Below the pieces are notes generated by a model that searched no databases, had not been told where the DNA came from, and saw only the letters and a list, made by a program, of their open reading frames with translations. From Eledone cirrhosa (Eukaryota): 64,000 nt of DNA. The position numbers and the translations under genes are program-made. The DNA is taken from NCBI GenBank assembly GCA_964016885.1, contig OZ024740.1, positions 71,424,001 through 71,488,000 on the forward strand, given 5' to 3'. Below, one piece after another: positions 4,185 to 56,742 of this stretch (its first letter is position 1; each line of letters starts with the position of its first letter).

Positions 4185-5668
4185 GGCGATACATCATAAA
4201 GAGGGTGGCTAAGGAACTTGGCACGAGTGGGGGGCCTATTCAGCTTAGATCCATCTAACGCTTTCGATAAGGTCGACCATCAATATCTGGCAGCAGTCCT
4301 CAAGACAGCTGGCTGTGGGCCCGTTTTCAGAGGAAGGATCGCTGCAATGTACAGCGATATCTGCTCTGTGGTCTGAGTGAACGGTCACCTCTCTGAACTG
4401 TTCAACATCATGCGCTCGGTTCACCAAGGTTGTCCTCTTTCGTCCCTGTTGTATGTACTGATCCTCGTGCCACTACTGCACAAATTGGAGTCGTTGAGGG
4501 GGTATCCCATGCGAACTAGAATGTGTGAGATCCGTCATCTACTACTGTCTGACCGTCGTGTCTTGTTCTGGTTCCCATCTGACTGCACTGGAGCGTTTGC
4601 TCTTTCAACCTTTGTGGAAGGGATGTGCTTCACTCGTCAGGCAGTCATTTGCTACCAACCCCGGGTTGGTGAAGTGCTAAAGCTACATTTCCTGCTTTTC
4701 CTTGACAGTAAATAGACATGGTCATCATTTGCTAAACACGTTTACCCAGCTTGTCTCCTGCAGTCATGGATCAAACGACAGCCACGAGGGAGCATTTGGA
4801 AACTGGAATGCCTTCAAGGGCTCACAGGCCTCTACAAACCGGGCATAGCGATTGGTTGAAACTCCACCTTGGTGTTCAATAGAGGGTCAGTGGTGAGTGA
4901 AAGCGATGACATTCTGGGCGTTGACGAAAATCAATTAGCCACACTTCCCGGATGTCTTTCGGCCCAGGGTCCATGGATAACCTAAAAAAATCTCTGGTCT
5001 GGCAGTGCTACCGGGGAGCATTGCCAGTTCCAGATAAACTCTACATGCATGGAAGTGCCGTCAGTCGGGCCTGTCAGAGATACGCGCAGGGTGACGAAAC
5101 CGTCTGCACACACTCTTGTGGGTTTATGTCGAACACCTGCTGTCACATGATCCACGTATCAACTGAATATATCGTGAAGATTACCCCGCCATCTTCCTTC
5201 AGCCGGGAAGAACAGGCAGATTTTAACTTATTGGTGGTCATGGCGAAAGAGGTCGTGTGGTTGACGCGTTTGAAAGGGTTGTAGACAAGCATTTTCCTCT
5301 TCGGCAAAGCCCTAATTAACTTTCTCAGATTTTGTTTGAAGAGGAAAATCAGAAGATGGCTTATGGAGGCAAGCATGGCTCGAGTGAATGGGCCTGCTCT
5401 GAGTATACGTGAGGACAACTGGAAGGGAGCACTTCCCCCAGTAGTTAGGGTGACCATAGCTTTTGTGGGCCTTCTCCACAGTGGCCATCGGAGATTTCCT
5501 CCCTAATGGAGGATTTGTTTCGTTTGATTTTTTAAATGTCTTTTTTATTTTTAGTTTTTGTTAACTTTTTTTACACACAAAAACCCATGCTATATCGGCC
5601 TGTGCCGTCTTTATTGTTTAATTAATGCCAGCCATATGTGGCTAATAAAGAAATCAGAATTATTATTG
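4185..5668 (+). pseudogene. Old, internally deleted Tx1-clade LINE copy (RT to 3' end)
   Basis: Fragments NGHLSELFNIMRSVHQGCPLSSLLYVL and WQCYRGALPVPDKLY match ORF2 at 6490-9899; 3' end TGTGGCTAATAAAGAAATCAGAATTATTATT matches the young copy's tail. Confidence 0.9.
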
Positions 5669-5789: not shown

Positions 5790-6202
5790 TTCCCAGTGCT
5801 TTTGTTATCTTTTACTATGGTAGCGGCTCGAATGATGACGTTTGTGCTCTCCGTCACCCCAAAGCAGCGGTGGAACAGGTGCTTTGGTGAAGAGCTTCTT
5901 GAAATTAGAAATCACCTGCTGATCCGTGGGCTTCAGGACAGGGTTGTTGTTGGGTGGAAGGTAGAGAACCTTTACAAACTTGAACTCTTCGAGGATGTCA
6001 TCTTCGAGATTAGGTGGGTGATCAGGGTTTGCAGGGGTAAGTTTTCCTGGAGATATTTCTTAACGTCAGGACCAAAGACCAAATTCACCCACTCCACAAA
6101 GAACTGCTTGGTGACCCACGCCCTCGGGTTTGCTCTCCACATAACCTGCAGTTTTTCTTTCAGAATCTTATGTGACTTAAAGGCTCTGGGGTTTTCCGAA
6201 TC

Positions 6203-6203
<1 letters not shown>
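5790..6203 (-). mobile_element. Tigger/pogo transposase, DDE-domain half (continues 17231-18145)
   Basis: Translates to SENPRAFKSHKILKEKLQVMWRANPRAWVTKQFFVEW...LPPNNNPVLKPTDQQVISNFKKLF, typical Tigger DDE_1 motifs. Confidence 0.85.

Positions 6204-6205
<2 letters not shown>

Positions 6206-6245
<40 letters not shown>
6206..6245. repeat. (AAT)n microsatellite at Tx1 3' junction
   Basis: Direct read. Confidence 0.95.
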
Positions 6246-6246
<1 letters not shown>

Positions 6247-6489
6247 TTTTCTTTATTAACCACAAGGGTTTACATAAAGTAGACATTAAGGACAGTACAG
6301 AACAATACAGGACGGTACAAATGGGCATTTCTGCGTGTAAAAAAAACAGAGGTTGAAATAAAATAACAAAGAAAAATTCCCCAATAGGGGGGAGACTTCC
6401 GAGGGACATTTGTGGAGAAAGCCCATTAAAAGACCACAGTGGCCCTGACCACCAGGGCAAGTGCCCTCTCCCAGTTTTCCACCTTTAAT

Positions 6490-9400
6490 TTACAGACACA
6501 TACACATATTCATTCGGGCCATACTTGCTTCTCTCACCCATCTTTCAACAAAATGCTGGGAAGAGAGCACTTCCTTCTCTACCCTGATTTTCCTTTTCAG
6601 ATGAAATTTGAAAAAGTTAATCAGGGCATCACCGAAGAGGTAAGTGCTCGTCTTCAGCCCTTTCAAACGTGTCCACCATACTATCTCTTTCACCATGGCC
6701 ACCAGACAGATAAAAACTGCCTGCCCTTCCCGGCTAAAGGTAGAGGGCGGGGCAATCCTCACGATGGACTCAGCTGATAGCTGGATCCGTCCTACACGTG
6801 ACAGCAGGTGTTCGACATAAACCCACAAGTCAGCAATGCTCGGACACTGGACGAGTGCGTGCAGGACGGTTTCGTCGCCCTGTGCGCATCTCGGACATGC
6901 CCGGCTGACGGCACCTCCATGCCTGTAAAGTTTATCCCGAACTGGCAAAGCACCCCGGTAGCACTGCCAGGCCAGGGATTTCTGGAAGTTGTCCATAGGC
7001 CCCGGCCCGAAAGTCCTTCCGAAGAGATTGGCTAGTTGATTTTCGTCGACGCCTAGAGTTTCTCCAAGTACGTCGTCGCTCTTCCCCTCCACTAATCCCC
7101 TATAGAACGCCAAGGTGGAGTTTCCACCGATCACATTGCCCGATTGGTCGAGGGCTGTGAGCGCCTGAAGACATTCCAGTCTCCAAGCGCCCCCTCTCGG
7201 TCTTCGCTTGACCCAGGACTGCAGCTCCGTCAAGGAGACGAGCTGGGGAAAAACGCGTCTAGCAAACGGCGACCACACCTGATCACCGTCGAGGAAGAGG
7301 TGGAGATGTCGTAGCCTGAGCGCGTGTCTGCGCATCATCAGCCACGGCATGCCCAGCCCTCCACGTAGCGGGTGTTGACAGCAGATGGACCGCCTGACCA
7401 TCGGAGCGCGTCCCTTCCACAAGAAGCGAAAGAGCAAACGCTCCAGCGCAGTCAGGCGGGGCTTAGGACAAGGTACGACGGTCAGGCGGTAGTAGATGAC
7501 GGACGCGATGTACGCGTTAGCCACCTCCGCTCGACCTTTCGGGGATAGCTTCCTCTCGGCCCATTTCTGGGTGAGAGAAGCCACCCTGCTCGTCATCTCG
7601 TCCCAGTTTTTGTCCGTCTGGAGGTCTGGACCGAACCAGACCCCTAGCAATTTAACCGGTCCGTCCGTCCAGCGCCCGACGACGCTGTTGGACGGCATGG
7701 ACCTGCCTCTCCAGGTGCCGAGCTGCAGGCCCACTGACTTTTCCTGGTTGATCATTGCTCCTGTCACCGCTTCGTATTCTCTTAGTGTAGTGCCGATCGC
7801 CTCGATGTGTTTGGCGTTCGACACCACTACGGTGACATCGTCGGCATATGCTGACACGGATCTTCCGCATCCTAGTTCGCGCGGGACCCCCCTCAACGTC
7901 TCCAGTTTGTGCAGTAATGGCTCGAGAGTCAATACGTATAATAGGGACGAGAGGGGACATCCTTGGCGGACCGAGCGCATGATGTTGAACGGTTCCGAAA
8001 GGTGACCGTTCACTCTCACTACAGAGCAGATGTCGCTGTGCATGGCAGCGATCCAGCCTCTGAAGACGGGCCCAAAGCCAGCCGCCCTCAGGACTGCCGC
8101 TAGGTAACGATGGTCGACCCTATCGAAGGCTTTCGACTGATCTAAATTGATCAAAGACCCACCCGTGCCAGGTTCCCTAGCTACCCTCTCTACGATGTAT
8201 CGCATGAGGTGGAGGTTGTCGTGAATAGATCTGTCGGGAATGGCGCATGTCTGTGCCTCTCCCACCAGACCACCAACGACAAGCGCCAACCTCTTTGCTA
8301 GCACCTTGGCCAAAATCTTGAACTCTGTGTTTAGCAGAGTTATGGGCCTAAAATTATCTATGTTATGCCCCTTTTTCGGATCCTTTCTCAGCAGCGCCAC
8401 CGCTCCTCGGCTCACAGAGCTGGGAATTCTCCCGTTCTGTTGCCAGTTGCAGTAGACGTCCGCCAAGAGGCCTCCGAACAAGTTTGGCATTTGTACGTAA
8501 AGTTCATAGGGCAGACCATCTAAACCAGGCGATTTACTCCTTGTGCAACTAGTCATTGCATCCCGTACTTCAGCGGTTGTTATCGGCTTTTCGCAACACT
8601 CCGCCTCAGTGGCCGAAAGCCGCGGCAGTCCGTCGAGGTAGACACTAAAGTCTATCCCTCGATCCGGCCCGCCACTGCCCCCGAACAGTTGAGCGAAGTG
8701 TCGCTGAAAAGCTTCACACATTTGCCCGGGATCGAGTAGCATGCGCCCGTCGTGGTCCACCAAAGACCGGATCGTGGCTTTGTTGCCACGACGCGCCTCC
8801 GTCACTCGGGGCCATTGAACGGCTTTCGTCCCCTCGTGTCTGAGAGCACGCACCCTAGCTCTGACAACGCAGCCTTCGTGCTTTGCATTGAAGAATTGGT
8901 CAAGGGCCAATTTCGCCGCAAGTACGTCGGTCGCGATGCCTTTGCTAAGCGCCTCATCTAATTTTCTAACTAATTCTCCCTCTGCTCTATTTTTCTCTAT
9001 TGCTAAAGTCTTACTAAACCTAATGGACTCTATTCTAATTGCTCTTTTCAGAGCAAACCACCACTTATTGTTGACGATGGCCCCCGTCAACGCCCGCTTA
9101 ACTAGTTCGCTAATCCGGTCTCTGTAGGCCTTGCGCGCTGGTAAGGACGCGTTTAGCTTCCAGTAGCCGGGTCCTCGTCTATGAAGCCTATCTAAGTCAA
9201 GCACACAGATCACGAATTTGTGGTCCGTGTAGCTGACTATCTTGAATTGTGGACAGCCTATGCTAGACCTATCTATTTCCCTACAAAATACTCTATCTAG
9301 ATATGATCTGGATGACCCTATGCGATTTGTCCAAGTCCACATTGGTACATTCGGGAAATCCATTCGGTACCTGTCAGACAGTTCAAAACGTCTGAGCAGG

Positions 9401-9899
9401 TTGGTGAGACTCTTGCACCCTCCTTCCCTATCCACTAATCCCACACAATCCCAGCGTGCATCTAAGATCCCGTTCCAGTCGCCCACTAACACTAAAGAGC
9501 GGGACGTTCCAAGAAAGGTCTCCAGACGCCGGAAGAAATCAGGCCGCCCTGCTCCTGTCGGGGCATAGACGGCCACTAACCTGAAAGCTTGGCCGTCTCC
9601 GCTGGTCACGTCCAGCACCACCAACTTACCTTCTGGGTCCAGGAAGATGGCCCGTATGGCAAGATCCAAACCTCTCCGAAAAAGCACAGCAACTCCTCCC
9701 CCCGATCCCGGACGGCTGGGAGATGCGTACACATCGTAGCCGCCGAAGATCGGTGCGAAAGCCTGTGCTTCGGAGATTCTGGTCTCGCTGATGGCCACTA
9801 CATCTATGTTTAGTGACCTGAGGTCGTTGAGCAGGTGGCCCTGCTTCCATGACACCCCAAGCCACGCGCATTTATTCTGCCTATTCTGAGTGAGGTCAT
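6490..9899 (-). CDS. Tx1 ORF2: APE endonuclease + reverse transcriptase + C-terminal zf-RVT
   Basis: Motifs ISET, LVGDWN, SYLDR, TDH, GYWKLN, KSPGLDG, FRPITLLN, KAFDRV, QGCPLS, YADD and CPRC..ETVLHALVQC. The likely start is the ATG at 9899 (MTSLRIGRINARGL), with a 1-nt frameshift in a G4 run near 9856. Confidence 0.92.
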
Positions 9900-9933
9900 G
9901 TTGAAAAGGAGTGGAAAAGATGGGAAAGACCAC

Positions 9934-11892
9934 TTACCTTACTTCTCGTAGAGGAAGGACGGTTTTTCCATCCTTTTCACAGCTTGTGGCCTCCTCAGGA
10001 AGGATGTCCTTATAAATCCTCCTGGAGAGTGCTTGTCGGAAGTCTCCGATGTCTTTGGGGAATTTTTGTTTTAGTGTCATGTACGTTTTCTGTGTGATGC
10101 GAGTGATTTGTATGTGTGGAGGTGGTGTGAATTTTGGGGTTGTTGTGTAGTCTTTTTCTGTGATGCTGGTGTTGTGTTGGATGTAGTGTAATAATTGCTT
10201 GTTGTTCAAATTTAATGCTGTGTAGTGTGTATCGTTTTGGTTGTTTTGTTTTGTTTGCGTTTGTTGTGGGTTTGTTTCTGTTTCGCATTTTGGTGACTTT
10301 TGTGGTGTAGGTGATGGTGGTGTTGGGGTTAATGATGGTGATGGTGTTGGTGTTTGGGTTGATGGGGTTGGTGATGCTGGTGTGGATGGTGGCATATCTG
10401 TCCTAACTTTTTTGTTTCTTAATTTATTTGTTTCCCTCTGTATTTTGTTTTTGGAGGGGGAAGGAAGAGAATTTTTTCTTTTTTGGTTTCTTTTTTTTTT
10501 CCGGATATCGTTTCCCACTCCTCGTCGTCACAATCTGTCTCCAGTTGTGATAGGCCGGGGAGTGGAAAATCCTCCACAGCCGTTAGTTTTGGTTGTGGCG
10601 TGGTGGATGGTGTAGGCGCTGGTGCTAGTTCTGAAGCGTTGGGTGGTGGTGGTGTTGGTTTTGCTGGTGGTGGTGGTGGTGTTGGTTTTGCTACTGTTGC
10701 TGGGGTTGTTGCTGTTATAGTTGCTTCTGTTGTTGCTGCTACAGTTGTTGCTGCCATCTCTGCTACTGGTGGTGTTGATGGTTGTGTCACTGGGGTGGGT
10801 AGGAGAGGTGGCCTCAACCTTTTAGACTGAGGGCAGAAAGCCCTTAGGTGGGTTCCTTCACCACAAACGACACACCTAGGTCTTCTGCCCTCGACAATTA
10901 CCGTGAGGTGGCTGCCGTCAGTGAGGTCTATTACCTCTGGGATCTCCTCAATGCTTTTTTGGTCCGCTTGGATCAGGAGCTCCATCCCAGATCCGGACCA
11001 GTTCTCCTGCTTTTCTTTTGCTGTTGCTATTATTTTCGTGTTGGCTTCGATGCCGGCGAGGACAGCCGCTATTAGCCAGGGAATTTCGATGGCCGGTGGA
11101 ACGTGGGTCACCCTGATCTTTACGAGTCTCTGGCCACAATAGCTTGGGACGAGTGTGAAGTCGTCACTTCTTAATGGGGCCATGGAGTGTTCTCTAGCCT
11201 CCTCTGGTGTTTCAAAGAACACGTCCACGGTTCCATACTTTTTCCCACGTCTGATGTGGGTTTTTCTTGCCCACACATGTCCCAAAGCTTTTTGGATTTG
11301 GGACTCGGATGCCCGTTCCACTCGGCGCGATTTTACATTTATTGTTCTATACGACACGGTGCATAGGCGCCGATGCTCCATTTTATTAGGTGTGGGGGGG
11401 GGCTGACCCTGTACCCATCTTTCTTTACTATTTGTTTGGCATTTTCTAAATCCTCCTGAGTTACCGTATATGCTTCGAACTGTTTTGCTACTATTGCAAA
11501 ACTGAGGGGCGTTTTTATAATGTCATTGTTGTTGTTGTTGCTATCGTTATTTGTGTTAATATTAATTTTAGTTTCAGTTGTGGTGGTGGTGACGTCAGTC
11601 GTCTTTGGTGGGGAAGAGTTAATTTATTTTTTTCTTCTTTTGTTTCTGTTGTCGCGGTGGTGGTGGTGGTGGTAGTTGTCGCGGTGGTGGTGGTGGTGGA
11701 GGCTTTAACACCTGCAGTCATTGGTAATGGCGGGAAATGAATGTCTGCCTGAGACAAATTTAAAATATTGCTAGTGCTTATATTTTTTTTTGTGTTGGCA
11801 AACGTAGTAACATTTACAATGGTGGTGTCGGTGTGAGGTGTTAATTTGTGAGGAAGGCTTTCAGCTGCTTCGTGCAGAGGTGAATTAGCCAT
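9934..11892 (-). CDS. Tx1 ORF1 (RRM-like region, CCHC knuckle, Pro/Thr-rich), broken into pieces by homopolymer frameshifts
   Basis: Track ORFs 11515-11901, 10419-11381 and 9934-10518; CVVCGEGTHLRAFC is CX2CX4HX4C; frame breaks fall at A/G/T runs near 11622, 11394-11402 and 10491-10500. Confidence 0.75.
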
Positions 11893-12100
11893 TTTTTTCA
11901 AAGAAATTTTTTTGATAATAATAAAAGTTTAAATTTTGGGCACAAGGCCCCAATCTTTTTGGGTGTCCTTTTCGGAAAACAATGTATGTGCGCTTATAAA
12001 CAGTTAACAATAACATTTTCCATAAATGACAATTTTTAACAAACGGAAATAACAAACCTTTGCGGAGCTCACGATGATACGATTTACTACGTAGGTCGCC

Positions 12101-12121
12101 AATAATAATAATAATAATAAT
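12101..12121. repeat. (AAT)n spacer between Tx1 5' end and R4 5' end
   Basis: Direct read. Confidence 0.95.
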
Positions 12122-15100
12122 ACAACTGGACGAAAGAATTGAATAGAACTGTTATGCAATGTTACCTGAAGAGTAACCCCAAGGAGAAAGGCTATAGGAA
12201 AAGGATGCATAACATCTGGAACGAGATTGGTCCATTTAAATTAGATGAACAAAAACTGGCCGAGCAGGCTCGGGTAATAAGAACTAATGGGTGGATAAGC
12301 GATCTGGAACTGGAGGAACTAAGCAGAGAGATTAGCTTGGAGATGGAGGGTGGAGTATGCCAGGCAAACGAGCCAGTGGGAAATGAAGGTGAAGAGGTCG
12401 AGAGAACGGAGGAACCACCCGAAACAGACAATGATCTGAATGCTGAGATAAATAATACCTGGAACAGAGATACGGCCACTGAGGAGATGAATGCTGACGG
12501 GCTAGGACAAGATTTGGTAGATATCCTAAACTTGGTGGTAGATGAATTGAACAATGATAGTGGGAGACCTATGAACCTAAGATTTGTAGACAGGAAAAAG
12601 TTAAAAGAAACAACAGCTAAGGTAAACAAAGTCATCCCATACCTTGAGGCAAGGAGCCTTCACCAGTGCAACAATATCCTCAAAGCAACAGCAAATACGG
12701 TGAGGAAACTACTTGGTATAAAAGCGAGAGGAAACAACAGACAAGAAAGAGCAGAGCCTTGGTGGAAGAAACGACTGAGTGGTCAAATCAGGGAAATGAG
12801 AAATGACATTGGAAAGCTTGAGTCCCTACTGAATGGGACACTAAAAAACATAGACACTAAAAATAGACTGGAAATAAAGTACAAAACTAGGAGGAAAAAG
12901 CTAAATATTATCATAGAGGAACTGAAGCAACGCATTGTAGCAAAGAGTGCAAAAATCAGGCGATACGAGAACAGAGTCAGCCAGTATAGACAGAACCGCA
13001 TGTTCGACAACAACCAGAAGATGCTGTTTGGACAGCTTGAAGGGAAAGAAAGAGGCAACGACTTGATCCCTGAGGCGGAACAAACTAAAACATTCTGGAG
13101 AGGAATATGGGAGCAGGATGTTAAACATAATGACCAGGCAGTGTGGATTGAGACAGTACAGAAGGAGATCAGGGAACAGGCACACCAACAAACTGATTTG
13201 AGTATCACAGTTGAAACTCTTAAGGGGCAGGCCAAAAAACTAACCAACTGGAAATCACCTGGCCCAGATGGTGTGCAGGGGTATTGGATTAAAAACATAA
13301 CATCCCTCCACCCGAAACTGACAACCATGTTCAATGACTGCTTGATGTCAGGTGAGGTACCAGAGTGGTTGACGAAAGGTACCACAGTTCTGATAATGAA
13401 AGACCGAATCAAGGGTAATGATGTTACCAACTATAGACCTATCACATGTCTGTCTGTAATGTGGAAACTGTTGACAAGCATTATGTCTGAGGAAATCTAC
13501 CATCACCTCCACACAAACAACTTGTTACCGGACGAACAGAAAGGATGCCTAAAGAAGTCACGTGGTACAAAGGACCAGTTACTTATTGATAAGATGGTAA
13601 TAAGGAATTGCAATGGGATGGATAGACTACAAAAAGCCATTTCACATGGTGCCTCATTCTTGGATCACCAAAAGCCTGGAGATCTTCAAGGTGGCAGATA
13701 ACATCAGACAGTTGTTGGGCAAAAGTATGAAGTCCTGGGAAACAGAGTTAACATCAACTGGAGAATCCTTGGGAAGCGTGAAGATCAAGAGAGGTATCTT
13801 CCAGGGAGATAGTCTGTCCCCTCTGTTGTTTGTCCTTGCCCTGATGCTCCTGACCAGTGTACTGCGAAAAGTGAGAGCAGGATACAGGTTGGGAAAGGGA
13901 GGGCTTACCATCAATCACCTCCTCTTCATGGACGATCTTAAGCTCTTCGGGAAGAGTGAGAAGGAGTTGGATGTGCTTGTTGACACTGTCCGTATTTTCA
14001 GCAATGATATATGTATGCAATTTGGTATTAGTAAGTGTGGAGTCATTGTGATGAGGAGGGGTAAGTTGAGCAGAAGTAACGGAATCCAGATACCAACAGG
14101 TGAGATGATAAAAGAAATTGACTCTGAGGAAGGATACAAGTATTTCGGCGTTCTGGAGGCTGATGACATCAAGAACAAAAAAATGAAGGAATTGATAAGA
14201 ACTGAATACCTTCGGAGAGTAAGGAGCGTATTAAAGTCACATCTGAACAGTAGGAATGCCATAAGTGCAGTAAATTCCAGAGCTATGTCTATTATTAGGT
14301 ACAGTGCGGGAATTCTGAGATGGAATGTTGCTGAACAAAAAGAAATGGATAGGAAGACTAGGAAGCTATTGACTATCTACAATATGTTACACAAGAGGAG
14401 TGATGTCGACAGACTCTACTTAAGGAGATCTGAGGGTGGAAGAGGTCTTATCAGCATAGAGGACTGTGTTCAGATGGAGAAAAACAACCTACACAAATAC
14501 GTGACTGATAGTAGGGAGCCAATGCTCAGAACTGTACTGAAGGAGGGGACAATAGGCCAGGGGATGTCCAAGGAGGAAATAACATCAAGGAGAAAGAGCA
14601 GCCTTCAGGAAAAATCCCTTCATAGTACCTTCTTTGAGAAAACTGAATTTAGAGATCCACAGAAGAGACCTAAAAAAGGCTACAGAAGGAATGTTAATGG
14701 CTGCGCAGGAGCAGGCCCTCAAAACGAAGTGGTTGAAACACCACATTTACAAGGAGGAGGCTAGCCCACTGTGCAGGATCTGTGGAGAGAGAGAGGAGAC
14801 TGTGGCTCACATTGTATCCGAGTGTAAACACCTAGCCCAGACTCACTATAAGGGCTGGAGACATGATGTGATGGGCAGGGTGATCCACTGGCACCTATGC
14901 AAAGTAAACAATTTATCACATTCTGAGAAGTGGTATGAGCATAAGCCAGAGGCGGTGATAGAAAACGATCAGGTGAAGGTGCTGTGGGATTTTAGGATAC
15001 AGACGGACAAGAAACTGGAACACAATAGACCTGACCTGGTGGTTTTGGACAAAGAAAAAAGATCGTGCCTGATTGTGGATGTGGCCTGCCCATTCGACAC

Positions 15101-15420
15101 GAGAGTGCAAGAGAAGGAGAGGGAGAAAATTAACCGATACCAGGACTTAAAGTGGGAGGTAAAAAGGATTTGGAACTGCCATGAAGTCAAAGTGGTCCCG
15201 ATTCTCATAGGCGCACTAGGGACTATCTCAAAAAGTTTCCAGGGATGGTTAAAGAAAATTGGCCCCTTCACGCTTTTTGGAACGATTCAAAAGGCATGCT
15301 TGCTGGGAACAGCAAGAACCCTCCGATACGTCCTGAATATCTGAGGCTGCAGGTAGTGGCTTGATATTCATCTCAACAAACTTTCCAGTTAACTAACATC
15401 AATGACTGAGACTCAAAGAG
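12122..15420 (+). mobile_element. Dong/R4-clade non-LTR retrotransposon (RT + CCHC + restriction-like endonuclease), slightly 5'-truncated, two frameshifts
   Basis: WTKELNRTVMQCY..KGYRKRMHNIW N-terminus, WKSPGPDG, YRPITCL, GIFQGDSLSP, LLFMDDLKL, CRICGEREETVAHIVSEC, NRPDLVV..IVDVACP..KINRY; no APE domain. Confidence 0.92.
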
Positions 15421-15433
15421 TAATAACAATAAC

Positions 15434-15476
<43 letters not shown>
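15421..15476. repeat. (AAT)n microsatellite
   Basis: Direct read. Confidence 0.95.
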
Positions 15477-15479
<3 letters not shown>

Positions 15480-16446
15480 GAGAAAAACAACCTACACAAA
15501 TACGTGACTGATAGTAGGGAGCCAATGCTCAGAATTGTACTGAAGGAGAGGACAATAGGCCAGGAGATGTCCAAGGAGGAAATAACAACAAGGAGAAAGA
15601 GCAGCCTTCATGAAAAATCCCTTCATAGTACCTTCTTTGAGAAAACTGAATTCAGAGATCCACAGACATGGAACTGGTTGAAAAGAGGAGACCTTAAAAA
15701 GGCTACAGAAGGAATGCTAATGGCTGCGCAAGAGCAGGCCCTCAAAACGAAGTGGCTGAAACATCATATTTACAAGGAGGAGGCTAGCCCACTGTGCAGG
15801 ATCTGTGGAGAGAGAGAGAGGAGACTGTGGTTCACATTGTATCCGAGTGTAAACACCTAGCCCAGACTCACTATAAAGGCTGAATACATGATGTGATGGG
15901 CAGGGTGATCCACTGGCACCTATGCAAAGTAAACAATTTACCACATTCTGAGAAGTGGTATGAGCATAAGCCAGAGTCGGTGATAGAAGACGATCAGGTG
16001 AAGGTGCTGTGGGATTTTAGGATACAGACGGACAAGAAACTGGAACACAATAGACCTGACCTTGTGGTTTTGGACAAGGAAAAAAGATCGTGCCTGATTG
16101 TGGGTGTGGCCTGCCCATTCGACACGAGAGTGCAAGAGAAGGAGAGGGAGAAAATTAACCGATACCAGGACTTAAAGTGGGAGGTAAAAAGGATTTGGAA
16201 CTGCCATGAAGTCAAAGTGATCCCGATTGTCATAGGCGCACTAGGTACTATCTCAAAAGGTTTCCAGGGATGGTTAAAGAAAATTGGCCCCGCCCCGCTT
16301 TTTGGAACACTTCAAAAGGCATGCTTGCTGGGAACAGCAAGAACCCTCCGATACGTCCTGAATATCTGAGGCTGCAGGTAGTGGCTTGATATTTATTTCA
16401 ACAAACTTTCCAGTTAACTAACATCAATGACTGAAACTCAAAGAAC
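15477..16446 (+). mobile_element. Second, 5'-truncated Dong/R4 copy (CCHC + RLE + 3' UTR)
   Basis: Near-duplicate of 14474-15420 with scattered substitutions; followed by (AAT)n. Confidence 0.92.

Positions 16447-16500
<54 letters not shown>
16447..16500. repeat. (AAT)n microsatellite
   Basis: Direct read. Confidence 0.95.
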
Positions 16501-16502
<2 letters not shown>

Positions 16503-16640
16503 TGATTTCTTTATTAACCACAAGGGTTTACATAAAGTAGACATTCAGGACAATACAGGACAATACAGGACGGTACAAATGGGCATTTCTGCGTGTAAAA
16601 AACAAAAACAGAGGATGTAACAAAAAAAATAACAATGAAA
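16501..16640 (-). mobile_element. Tx1 3'-terminal stub (~140 bp)
   Basis: TTTCTTTATTAACCACAAGGGTTTACATAAAGTAGACATT...GGGCATTTCTGCGTG is nearly identical to 6248-6375. Confidence 0.9.
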
Positions 16641-17230
16641 ATAATAATAATGAAATTGTGTACAGTGCTCAGGTGCACTACAACTCATCAAAAGTGTATG
16701 TATAGTACATAGAATAATGTTCAAATGTCAGGAAAATGAACATTGTACGAGTCATGAAATACATGTGTGCGTGTGTATGGGGAGGGGGACATCAGGTGCA
16801 GTGTTGGCGAATCTCAGGAAGCATGGAGGTTTTAAAAGAAGCAGTGTCTCGACAGCTAACAACTGATGCAGGTAGTTTGTTCCATGCTTCAGCAACTCTG
16901 AGCGTGAAAAAATGTTTCCGAAAGTCATGGGAGCTGTGCTGTTTTCTGACTTTGTAGGCATACCCACGTGTGTGAGACACATGGAAATCATAAAGGTGCT
17001 CAGGGTTGTTGTTGGAAAGATGGTTAATAATTTTGTGGGTGTTTACCAAGTCAGTTGCCAGACGTCTGAGCTTCAATGTATCCATGCCCATGGAAGCAAG
17101 GCTTTCAGAGTATGGTAGATGCCTGATGGAGGGTATTCGCTTGGTTGCACGTCTCTGAACAGTTTCCGGGAGGTCAATCTTCTGAGCAAGATAGGGGTTC
17201 CAGACTGGTGACGCAAATTCTAAAGGTCTT
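16641..17230 (-). mobile_element. 5'-truncated CR1-clade LINE with (ATT)n tail
   Basis: RPLEFASPVWNPYLAQKIDLPETVQRRATKRI...LKLRRLATDLV...RKHFFTLRVAEAWNKLP; 3' stem-loop AGTGC-N6-GCACT just before the ATT tail. Confidence 0.88.
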
Positions 17231-18145
17231 GATAAACGAGCAGCGGCTTAATCTTGCAGTCGCCGCTCACATTGGCACTCAGTGCGAGTGTTAGCCTTTC
17301 CTTCATGGGTTTCTGGCCTGGCATCCTCTTCTCCTCTGCCGTTATATAAGTCCTTCTTGGAATCTTCTTCCAAAAAATCCTGTCTCATCACAGTTGAAGA
17401 CTTGCTGGAGGGTGTATCCATCGGTTGCTATAATTCTGGCAAAAGTTTTGAGGTAATCCTCAGCTGCCTTCATATCCGCGCTCGCTGTCTCACAATGCCT
17501 GACAACTGAATGCGGGTCTTCTTTTTAAAATTCTCGAACCAGCCCCGACTGGTTTTAAACGGCTCGCCCGATGCCTCATCCGGCGAAGTGCCTGGGGTCA
17601 GCTGCAGAAAATCAGCGTAAATAGCCCCTGCCTTCTCACATATTATAACCCTCGTCACGGTATCTCCTGCGAGCTGCTTCTCTGTCAACCACACTATCAG
17701 CAGCTTTTCCATATTTTCATGGATAGATGTCCGCTGTTTAGAAATTATTTTAACGCGCTTTGCTGGCGTTCTAGTCTTTATCGACTCCTTTTGCTTCAGT
17801 ATTGTGCAGATCGTAGAAGTACTACGCTCGTACTGCTTCGCCAGGTCGACTACACGCACACCTTAGTCATGTTTTTCGATATTTTATTTCTTTAATTCAA
17901 TGCACATCATCCGCTTCTTCTTCTCAGCACTGTCTTTCGCGCTCACTTTCTTCGGACCCATGGGATACTGGGCGGATGTTACGGCATTCATTGTGGCGGT
18001 CGCTACGCCAACTAGCGGTGGGATATTTGAAGCTGGCTCGTAACCCGAATTTTAGCTCGCAACTCAAAGCAAAAAATCGGCCGAGAGACGGCTCGTATCT
18101 TGAAAAACTCGTTAGTTGGGACACTCGTAAGTCAAGGTACCACTG
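17231..18145 (-). mobile_element. Tigger/pogo transposon 5' half: TIR, HTH-psq/CENP-B HTH and start of DDE
   Basis: TA|CAGTGGTACCTTGACTTACGAG terminus at 18145; ATG at 17961 (MGPKKVSAK); STICTILK, FKTSRGWFENFKK, QVFNCDETG, ERLTL..ANVSGDCKIKPLLVY; contains stops and frameshifts. Confidence 0.9.
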
Positions 18146-56449: not shown

Positions 56450-56742
56450 TGTATCAAGTCTGTATATTTAAATAGCTGTAATATAGTCCTTGTAGATTCT
56501 GCAATTTGAGCTTGAGTGCAAACTCATTTGTTTCTCAATCTAATCTGCAGATCTTAATTACTGATACTTTCTATAAATCTCGTCTGTGGCTCTGCAACTG
56601 TATCAAGTCTGTATATTTAAATAGCTGTAATATAGTCCTTGTAGATTCTGCAATTTGAGCTTGAGTGCAAACTCATTTGTTTCTCAATCTAATCTGCAGA
56701 TCTTAATTACTGATACTTTCTATAAATCTCGTCTGTGGCTCT
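56450..56742. repeat. Tandem duplication, 149-bp period
   Basis: 144-bp unit TGTATCAAGTC...TGTGGCTCT repeated with a GCAAC spacer. Confidence 0.95.

What the first reader, a model, noticed from the sequence alone, without database searches (positions are those of the whole stretch)
5790..18145. Nested stack: a CR1 tail creates an (ATT)n landing pad used by two unrelated LINE clades inside a split Tigger
Seen: on the minus strand the Tigger frame stops at AAG CCG CTG CTC GTT TAT CA (KPLLVY, ~17231) and resumes 11 kb away at T TCG GAA AAC CCC AGA GCC (SENPRA, ~6201). Joining them restores KPLLVYHSENPRAFK. Between them lie CR1(-), AAT, Tx1 stub(-), AAT, R4(+), AAT, R4(+), AAT, full Tx1(-), AAT. 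Every internal junction is (AAT)n, and the Tigger itself has no such repeat. Inference: the CR1 inserted first and supplied the microsatellite; an APE-type Tx1 and an RLE-type Dong/R4 then each inserted twice with fixed, opposite polarity, regenerating the target each time. Known: Dong/Rex6 target TAA repeats and some Tx1 families (Kibi, Koshi) target other microsatellites. A shared, TE-made target niche like this is something I do not know to be described.
Basis: partly seen in the sequence, partly recalled or inferred. Interest (0 to 1): 0.82.

Follow-up and report, generated by a model that had tools for sequence, protein, structure and literature searches.

The report
Two jumping genes share AAT repeats
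In this animal genome two unrelated families of jumping genes sit almost only inside AAT repeats, facing opposite ways, and pile up there; in this window the pile likely grew on the repeat tail of a third, older element, and the ATT preference of the Tx1 family was not found in the papers searched.

Summary
The stack is real and laid out as described. Intact Tigger copies read through the break point, and the two halves align as one piece. Genome-wide, 1570 of 1687 exact Tx1 heads follow (ATT)3 in one phase, and 0 follow the opposite strand. The R4/Dong family has (AAT)n at 30 of 30 full-length heads and at 34 of 39 copies picked by their 3' end. Divergence orders the pieces Tigger, CR1, then R4b/stub, then R4a/Tx1, which fits a CR1 tail as the seed here.

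The CR1 pad is not the rule. A CR1 tail is the neighbour in 1 of 73 flanks where it could be seen, another Tx1 or R4 in 45. Similar stacks are common. The niche is AAT microsatellite in general, largely regenerated by the targeting elements.

Dong on TAA is known, including in molluscs. One target shared by an APE and an RLE element is known for U2 genes (Keno, Utopia). An (ATT)n-specific Tx1 family was not found in my searches, but Repbase was not searchable. Verdict: new variant of a known kind.

The parts
17230..18145 (-). Tigger (pogo-like Tc1/mariner DNA transposon), 5' half with its terminal repeat after a TA; ends KPLLVY
   Evidence: HTH_Tnp_Tc5 E 2.8e-10; 82-88% to intact copies; about 10% from family column majority; end seen
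16652..17229 (-). 5'-truncated CR1-type LINE, 578 bases, the likely seed of the microsatellite
   Evidence: C-terminal ORF LEFASPVWNP...FFTLRVAEAWNKLP (CR1 label from recalled motifs, no Pfam hit); 5588 exact family 3' ends with 2 or more ATT; 3.5-4.0% divergence
16640..16651 (+). (AAT)4, proximal part of the CR1 tail
   Evidence: family tail median 4 units, n=28
16504..16639 (-). Tx1 3'-UTR stub of a sister variant
   Evidence: 89.6% to the full Tx1, 97.7% to a copy elsewhere
16447..16500 (+). (AAT)18 between R4b tail and stub tail
15479..16446 (+). R4b: 5'-truncated R4/Dong-like LINE (3' 968 bases, RLE region)
   Evidence: 94% to R4a, 3.1% from column majority
15421..15478 (+). R4a tail with (AAT)15
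12122..15420 (+). R4a: R4/Dong-like LINE lacking 5' leader and ORF start; RT, CCHC knuckle, restriction-like endonuclease motifs; frameshifted
   Evidence: RVT_1; CRICGEREETVAHIVSEC and RPDLVVLDKEKRSCLIVDVACP in the translation; 0.8% from column majority
12101..12121 (+). (AAT)7 shared by the Tx1 head and the R4a 5' junction
6246..12100 (-). Full-length, frameshifted Tx1-like LINE: about 210-base 5' UTR, ORF1, ORF2 with APE, RT and zf-RVT, 3' UTR ending in a CUUGU-loop hairpin
   Evidence: Pfam Exo_endo_phos, RVT_1, zf-RVT; best solved relative L1 ORF2p, E 4.8e-50; 0.3-1.2% divergence; hairpin; frames
6207..6245 (+). (AAT)13, Tx1 tail plus distal remainder of the CR1 tail
6201..6205 (-). 5 bases resembling the end of the Tigger left half with one mismatch: short target duplication or degenerate tail
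   Evidence: this CR1 family shows no regular duplication
5828..6200 (-). Tigger 3' part, resumes SENPRAFK; no right terminal repeat seen
   Evidence: DDE_1 E 1e-07; 82-85% to intact copies; joined alignment

Best explanation
A CR1 copy likely inserted first into an old Tigger and left a short (ATT)n tail, and four later insertions by two AAT-repeat-specific LINE families, a Tx1-like and an R4/Dong-like one, then likely accumulated in that tail in opposite orientations. Shown: the layout; the uninterrupted Tigger site; the repeat preference and fixed polarity of both families across the genome; the divergence order. Inferred: target-primed reverse transcription in which the Tx1 APE nicks the AAT strand first and its (AUU)n RNA tail anneals there, with the second nick after ATT on the other strand (one phase at 1570 of 1687 heads), while the R4 restriction-like endonuclease nicks the ATT strand first. 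Inferred: each insertion leaves repeat on both sides and adds units (tail, duplication, slippage), so a seed of about 4-6 units became 57 units in five runs and targets multiply. Specificity is for the repeat sequence, not for CR1: most pads in this genome are runs flanking earlier Tx1, R4 or SINE copies.
For: Tigger empty site and joined alignment. Tx1 heads: 30 of 30 sampled, 1570 of 1687 genome-wide, 0 in the opposite polarity, background 0.00028. R4A: 30 of 30 full-length heads (three with short or degenerate runs) and 34 of 39 copies picked by 3' end, with breakpoints spread along the element, background 0.0057. Polarity among 163 flanks: R4-type 66 forward against 2 reverse, Tx1-type 27 reverse against 1 forward (sets overlap, so not all independent). 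Divergence: Tigger 0.097-0.106, CR1 0.035-0.040, R4b 0.031, stub 0.022, R4a 0.008, Tx1 0.003-0.012. CR1-tail landings elsewhere: L193, L296, L303, L305, L308. 14 of 20 traced loci, chosen for having a LINE-like neighbour, hold three or more such elements in a row. R4 truncation points share 1-3 bases with the repeat in 20 of 23.
Against: Only 5 of 10 5'-truncated Tx1 copies have ATT at the 5' junction (3 more of the 29 copies undetermined). CR1 and R4b ages are close (0.035-0.040 against 0.031), and the stub's age rests on 134 bases. Two R4A copies sit in (AAG)n and two have no repeat. The samples are best hits, so they lean to young copies. No endonuclease assay; nick positions are inferred from junctions only. 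R4 clade membership was not tested against named references.
Confidence: 0.82

Rival explanations
1. The (ATT)n before Tx1 heads is carried on the RNA (read-through from upstream repeats), not a target chosen by the endonuclease; Tx1 would make its own flanks.
For: Half of the truncated Tx1 copies (5 of 10) lack ATT at the 5' junction; no ribozyme was found at the head, so the transcript start is unknown.
Against: Beyond the run, 33 of 44 heads abut the end of another element that itself carries or needs an AAT run, which random insertion would not give; 5 truncated copies with different breakpoints do have ATT; run lengths vary from 1 to 24 perfect units.
Confidence: 0.07
2. A Tx1 or R4 copy entered the ATT-like bases of the Tigger site first and the CR1 came later, so the CR1 is a passenger.
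For: The empty site contains an imperfect ATT stretch; CR1 and R4b divergences nearly overlap; the SINE of this genome uses sites with only one or two ATT units.
Against: The CR1 5' end abuts Tigger with no repeat; the CR1 family shows no ATT preference (0 of 29); the run next to it equals the family's median tail; R4 and Tx1 nearly always have a real run on both sides.
Confidence: 0.06
3. The stack arose by duplication, recombination between AAT runs, or misassembly across them rather than by four separate insertions.
For: Every inner junction is a low-complexity repeat; no read or contig spanning the laid stretch was available.
Against: The paired copies are 6% and 10% apart and each is closer to copies elsewhere; the Tigger halves meet at the base; the ages are ordered; polarity is kept across many loci.
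Confidence: 0.05

Closest known systems
Dong and Dong-like R4-clade LINEs (Bombyx mori Dong, DongAg, DongBg, Darwinula Dong1/2; PMC3812793, PMC7998251, PMC3774820; passages read)
   Same: Single ORF with RT and restriction-like endonuclease; (TAA)n target, stated to hold for most insects, molluscs and cnidarians; TAA lies upstream on the sense strand, as here.
   Different: Here at least two families (R4A, R4B) share the runs with a Tx1-like family and form multi-kilobase stacks; no 5' ribozyme was detected by Rfam.
Microsatellite-specific Tx1-clade LINEs: Kibi (TC)n, Koshi (TTC)n, crocodilian Tx1 on (TTCC)n/(TTTC)n (PMC4494074, passages and section 15; its Fig. 3 and supplements not seen)
   Same: APE-RT element inserted in a simple repeat with fixed strand; repeat on both sides; a SINE that appears to share its 3' end.
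   Different: Target is (ATT)n, not a pyrimidine-strand repeat; at least 1687 near-identical heads in one genome; shares the target with an RLE element.
Keno (APE, Tx1 clade) and Utopia (RLE, NeSL clade) in U2 snRNA genes (PMC4640811, passages read)
   Same: [quoted passage not shown]
   Different: The target is a gene, not a microsatellite, and insertion does not multiply it; here the two families face opposite ways in one genome and regenerate the target.
TRAS and SART in (TTAGG)n telomeric repeats; R1 and R2 in 28S rDNA
   Same: Two LINE families in one repeat, opposite orientation (TRAS/SART); APE and RLE elements side by side in one target (R1/R2).
   Different: TRAS and SART are both APE-type R1-clade elements at telomeres; R1 and R2 use different sites of a gene.

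Membership tests
Tx1 clade (L1 group) | Two ORFs; ORF2 with APE, RT and C-terminal zinc-binding region | tested here: met
   Pfam Exo_endo_phos, RVT_1, zf-RVT; copy L194 has an open 1139-aa ORF2; best solved relative is L1 ORF2p over residues 30-866
Tx1 clade (L1 group) | RT groups with Tx1/Keno/Kibi/Koshi references | tested here: inconclusive
   No named references were available. In a FastTree RT tree the element falls in a clade (support 0.83) that includes elements ending in U2 (L233, L236; Keno-like) and U1 (L243) genes, apart from plant L1s, but not as their sister
Tx1 clade (L1 group) | Target-sequence preference (over 20% of flanks, criterion of PMC4494074) | tested here: met
   1570 of 1687 heads follow (ATT)3
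Kibi/Koshi | (TC)n or (TTC)n target | tested here: not met
   Target is (ATT)n
R4/Dong clade | Single ORF, RT, CCHC knuckle, PD-(D/E)xK restriction-like endonuclease, no APE | tested here: met
   RVT_1 only; knuckle matched and RPD...D..P...K...Y read by eye in the translation, my regular expression for it returned nothing; L177 has one frame of 513+628 aa split by a stop
R4/Dong clade | (TAA)n target, repeat upstream on the sense strand | tested here: met
   30 of 30 heads; 34 of 39 5' junctions
R4/Dong clade | RT groups with Dong/R4/Rex6 and not with HERO or NeSL | not testable with these tools
   The 120 listed homologues (48-67% identical) carry no informative names
R4/Dong clade | HDV-like ribozyme at the 5' end | tested here: inconclusive
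   Rfam found none in L324 1440-1900; Rfam models miss many such ribozymes
R4/Dong clade | Diverged N-terminal SANT/Myb-like domain without zinc fingers | not tested
   No Pfam hit there; profile-profile search not run
CR1 clade | C-terminal ORF2 motifs, short-repeat 3' tail, 5' truncation, no regular target duplication | tested here: inconclusive
   Tail and lack of duplication seen; the clade label rests on recalled motifs; RT is not in this fragment
Tigger/pogo | HTH_Tnp_Tc5 and DDE_1 transposase, terminal repeat after TA | tested here: met
   (left end only; right end not present)

The most novel reading that the evidence does not exclude
This genome holds a self-amplifying guild on one trinucleotide: an undescribed (ATT)n-specific Tx1 lineage (several subfamilies, over 1600 young full-length copies), a partner tRNA-type SINE recognised through a shared CUUGU-loop 3' hairpin, and at least two Dong-like RLE families that cut the other strand. 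Each insertion multiplies the common target, non-specific CR1 tails seed new sites, and the guild itself would be a main source of the genome's AAT microsatellites and of its retroelement pile-ups.
Probability: 0.45. Interest if true: 0.66.

Novelty: new variant of a known kind. Interest (0 to 1): 0.5.

Why it matters
It adds a target, (ATT)n, to the list known for Tx1-type APE endonucleases, in a young, high-copy family with at least one open ORF2 (L194), so the basis of specificity can be tested directly. It gives a microsatellite case of an APE and an RLE element converging on one target from opposite strands, where insertion multiplies the target. It offers a testable cause for AAT-rich, retroelement-dense patches, and warns that such AAT loci are poor markers and prone to presence/absence variation. 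The CR1 landing pad itself is a tidy example and not a new system.

Tried and rejected
Reads: laying four public runs (all short contigs) on 5900-12500 showed the Tx1 family in runs labelled with three organisms, but no piece spanned the stretch and repeats were skipped, so the assembly was neither confirmed nor refuted. The metagenome scan gave 64 more distant relatives; none shows four ATT or AAT units, one at 42% ends in (AT)27, and many contigs stop before the element ends, so conservation of the ATT target outside this genome is open. A DNA search with the SINE returned nothing because it is too common; I used 37 copies from loci not picked through a targeted element. Rfam found no ribozyme at the Tx1 or R4A head. 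Rejected: CR1 as the main pad; local tandem duplication of R4a/R4b or of the stub; ATT targeting by the CR1 family; the SINE as a long-array specialist (it uses sites with one or two ATT units). A maximum-likelihood tree failed at the display step and was replaced by FastTree. Literature: nine searches ran; none listed a Tx1 family on (ATT)n or Tx1 with Dong on one microsatellite. Repbase, Repbase Reports, Kojima and Fujiwara 2004, and Fig. 3 and supplements of PMC4494074 were not seen and may hold such a family.
Full report
Observation. The window is G000:C1:71424001-71488000 of a 3.0-Gb assembly. I did not determine the species; the mix of young Dong-R4, L1-Tx1, CR1 and SINE families resembles the one reported for an octopus (PMC13282606, first third of the text and passages read), which is an inference about the kind of host only. 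Five of the window's six perfect AAT/ATT runs of four or more units are in this stack. Pfam gives HTH_Tnp_Tc5 and DDE_1 for the Tigger halves, APE + RT + zf-RVT for the Tx1, and RT for R4a.

The Tigger. All 29 other copies fetched read on through the break point with no ATT run; 25 of them lie clustered on one contig, so they are not 29 independent witnesses. The two halves align as one block of about 1290 bases at 85-87% to L130, L138 and L139. Five bases at the right junction match the end of the left half with one mismatch; this CR1 family shows no regular duplication in 13 copies checked, so a degenerate tail is as likely as a duplication.

Tx1 targeting. All 30 sampled heads, the window's own included, follow an ATT run in one phase and continue for 1.4 kb or more as the same element. 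Over the whole genome 1687 exact 21-base heads exist; 1570 (93%) directly follow (ATT)3; none follows the repeat in the opposite polarity. The chance rate in 200 kb taken at round coordinates is 0.00028 per position. Among 29 copies picked by the 3' end, 16 are full length with ATT at the head, 5 truncated with ATT, 5 truncated without, 3 undetermined. The truncated copies are the weak point.

R4 targeting. Of 39 copies picked by the 3' end, 34 have (AAT)3 within 60 bases of the 5' junction (two loosely), 2 sit in (AAG)n, 2 have no repeat, 1 is undetermined; background is 0.0057. The breakpoints are spread along the element, so the repeat cannot be part of the RNA's 5' end. All 30 full-length heads follow an AAT run. 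A second family, R4B (41-43% protein identity), behaves the same way.

Polarity and neighbours. I classed what lies across the run for 163 flanks (sets overlap): R4-type 66 forward and 2 reverse on the AAT strand, Tx1-type 27 reverse and 1 forward, SINE 15 reverse, an unidentified family 4, CR1 1, unclassified 47. One reverse R4 is a 5' inversion of a forward copy (L365). In the 73 flanks where a CR1 tail could appear, it does once (L193), against 45 Tx1/R4, 8 SINE and 19 unclassified. Following 20 loci chosen for a LINE-like neighbour over 10 kb, 14 hold three or more such elements in a row and none reaches this CR1 family; about seven run past the fetched stretch.

The CR1 as seed. The family has 5588 exact 3' ends with two or more ATT units; tails are 1-7 units, median 4 (28 of 29 scored); no ATT run lies at the aligned 5' end in 29 copies, though in about half that end is only the limit of my query or of the alignment. 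None of those 29 has a Tx1 or R4 in its tail, and 4 have the SINE there. Of 671 tails with eight or more units, the first 30 listed have R4A (2), R4B (1), a Tx1-type head (1) or the SINE (2, one followed by R4B) directly beyond. So the pad is replicated but minor, close to CR1's 1 in 17 share of AAT runs in the arbitrary sample. Divergence from the column majority of the 15 nearest copies is 0.097-0.106 (Tigger), 0.035-0.040 (CR1), 0.031 (R4b), 0.022 (stub), 0.008 (R4a) and 0.003-0.012 (Tx1). This fits CR1 first and growth away from it, but CR1 and R4b are close.

Mechanism. Shown: positions, phase and polarity. From established knowledge of target-primed reverse transcription (recalled): the first nick is on the strand opposite the element's sense and primes on the RNA 3' end. 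Inferred: the Tx1 APE nicks the AAT strand, the R4 endonuclease the ATT strand, which gives opposite polarity in one repeat. A seed of about 4-6 units became 57 units in five runs after four insertions. A side result bears on this. A CUUGU loop on a short stem lies 16-20 bases before the ATT tail in three Tx1 variants (stems AACC/GGTT, GCC/GGC, GGCC/GGCT), in the SINE (TGGC/GCCA) and in the Tx1 5' UTR (GGGC/GCCC); folding recovers it for the Tx1, stub and SINE ends. SINE copies have duplications of 11 bases or more in 16 of 37 cases against 2% in shuffled pairs, mostly starting with ATTA. If the Tx1 lineage moves this SINE, which is inferred, its staggered cut would copy 3-7 repeat units per insertion in a pure array.

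Comparison. Dong on (TAA)n is known and stated for molluscs (PMC7998251, PMC3812793, PMC3774820; passages). Tx1-clade microsatellite targets in the papers I saw are (TC)n, (TTC)n, (TTCC)n and (TTTC)n (PMC4494074). Parallel use of one site by an APE and an RLE element is described for Keno and Utopia (PMC4640811). Microsatellite birth from LINE tails is reviewed in PMC3812793, and stem-loop recognition shared by LINE and SINE 3' ends in PMC3747384 (passages). The octopus annotation lists young Dong-R4 and L1-Tx1 families, and the word 'target' does not occur in its main text; PMC9115989 mentions a Dong without target analysis in the passages seen. TRAS/SART and R1/R2 are recalled. Nine searches found no (ATT)n-specific Tx1; Repbase was not searchable. 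Relatives in metagenomes include U2- and U1-flanked elements, in keeping with the Tx1 clade, but the tree has no named references. An earlier scan report from another genome (e1-9959201) describes a SINE tail hit by two Dong-like families; it is an unchecked note and suggests such pile-ups are not unique.

Verdict. Observation confirmed; interpretation right for this locus and for the targeting, overstated on the CR1 pad. The part worth keeping is the (ATT)n-specific Tx1 family that shares Dong's target from the other strand. New variant of a known kind; interest 0.5.

Noticed in passing
window 6258-6270 and 11921-11933; SINE in L320:1320-1497: A CUUGU-loop hairpin with four or five different but pairing stems precedes the ATT tail in three Tx1 variants, in an abundant tRNA-type SINE and, oddly, inside the Tx1 5' UTR before a short ATT stretch; it suggests a Tx1-SINE partnership.
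   Followed up: partly
SINE copies in L092-L120, L210-L229 and the window: The SINE makes 9-22-base target duplications that mostly begin with ATTA, at sites with only one or two ATT units.
   Followed up: partly
window 4186-5667: An older, degraded Tx1-like fragment on the + strand (72-81% to the full copy) ending in a short ATT tail just left of the stack.
   Followed up: no
L174:1-1561 (oriented), L308, L354-L373: A second Dong-like family (R4B, 41-43% protein identity to R4A) is a frequent member of the same stacks.
   Followed up: partly
L182, L305, L335, L344, L039: An unidentified element end with an (AAT)n tail recurs next to targeted elements; no protein match to R4, Tx1 or CR1 in 1.5 kb.
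   Followed up: no
L173, L183, L325, L333, L350: Some R4A copies sit in (AAG)n or at an AAT-to-AAG transition; the element's own head begins with AAG-like units.
   Followed up: no
L365 and L362: R4A copies with an inverted segment at or near the 5' end, resembling twin priming.
   Followed up: no
G000:C25:19.2-23.7 Mb (L122-L150): Most of the best Tigger matches lie in one 4.5-Mb stretch, suggesting a large tandem amplification.
   Followed up: no
L233, L236, L243, L244 (metagenome contigs): Tx1-like relatives ending in U2 (two) and U1 (one) snRNA genes, and one ending in (AT)27; a U1-inserted LINE would be unusual.
   Followed up: no
L194: A Tx1 copy with an open 1139-residue ORF2, a candidate for biochemistry.
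   Followed up: no
window 56450-56742: A perfect two-copy tandem repeat of 149 bases.
   Followed up: no
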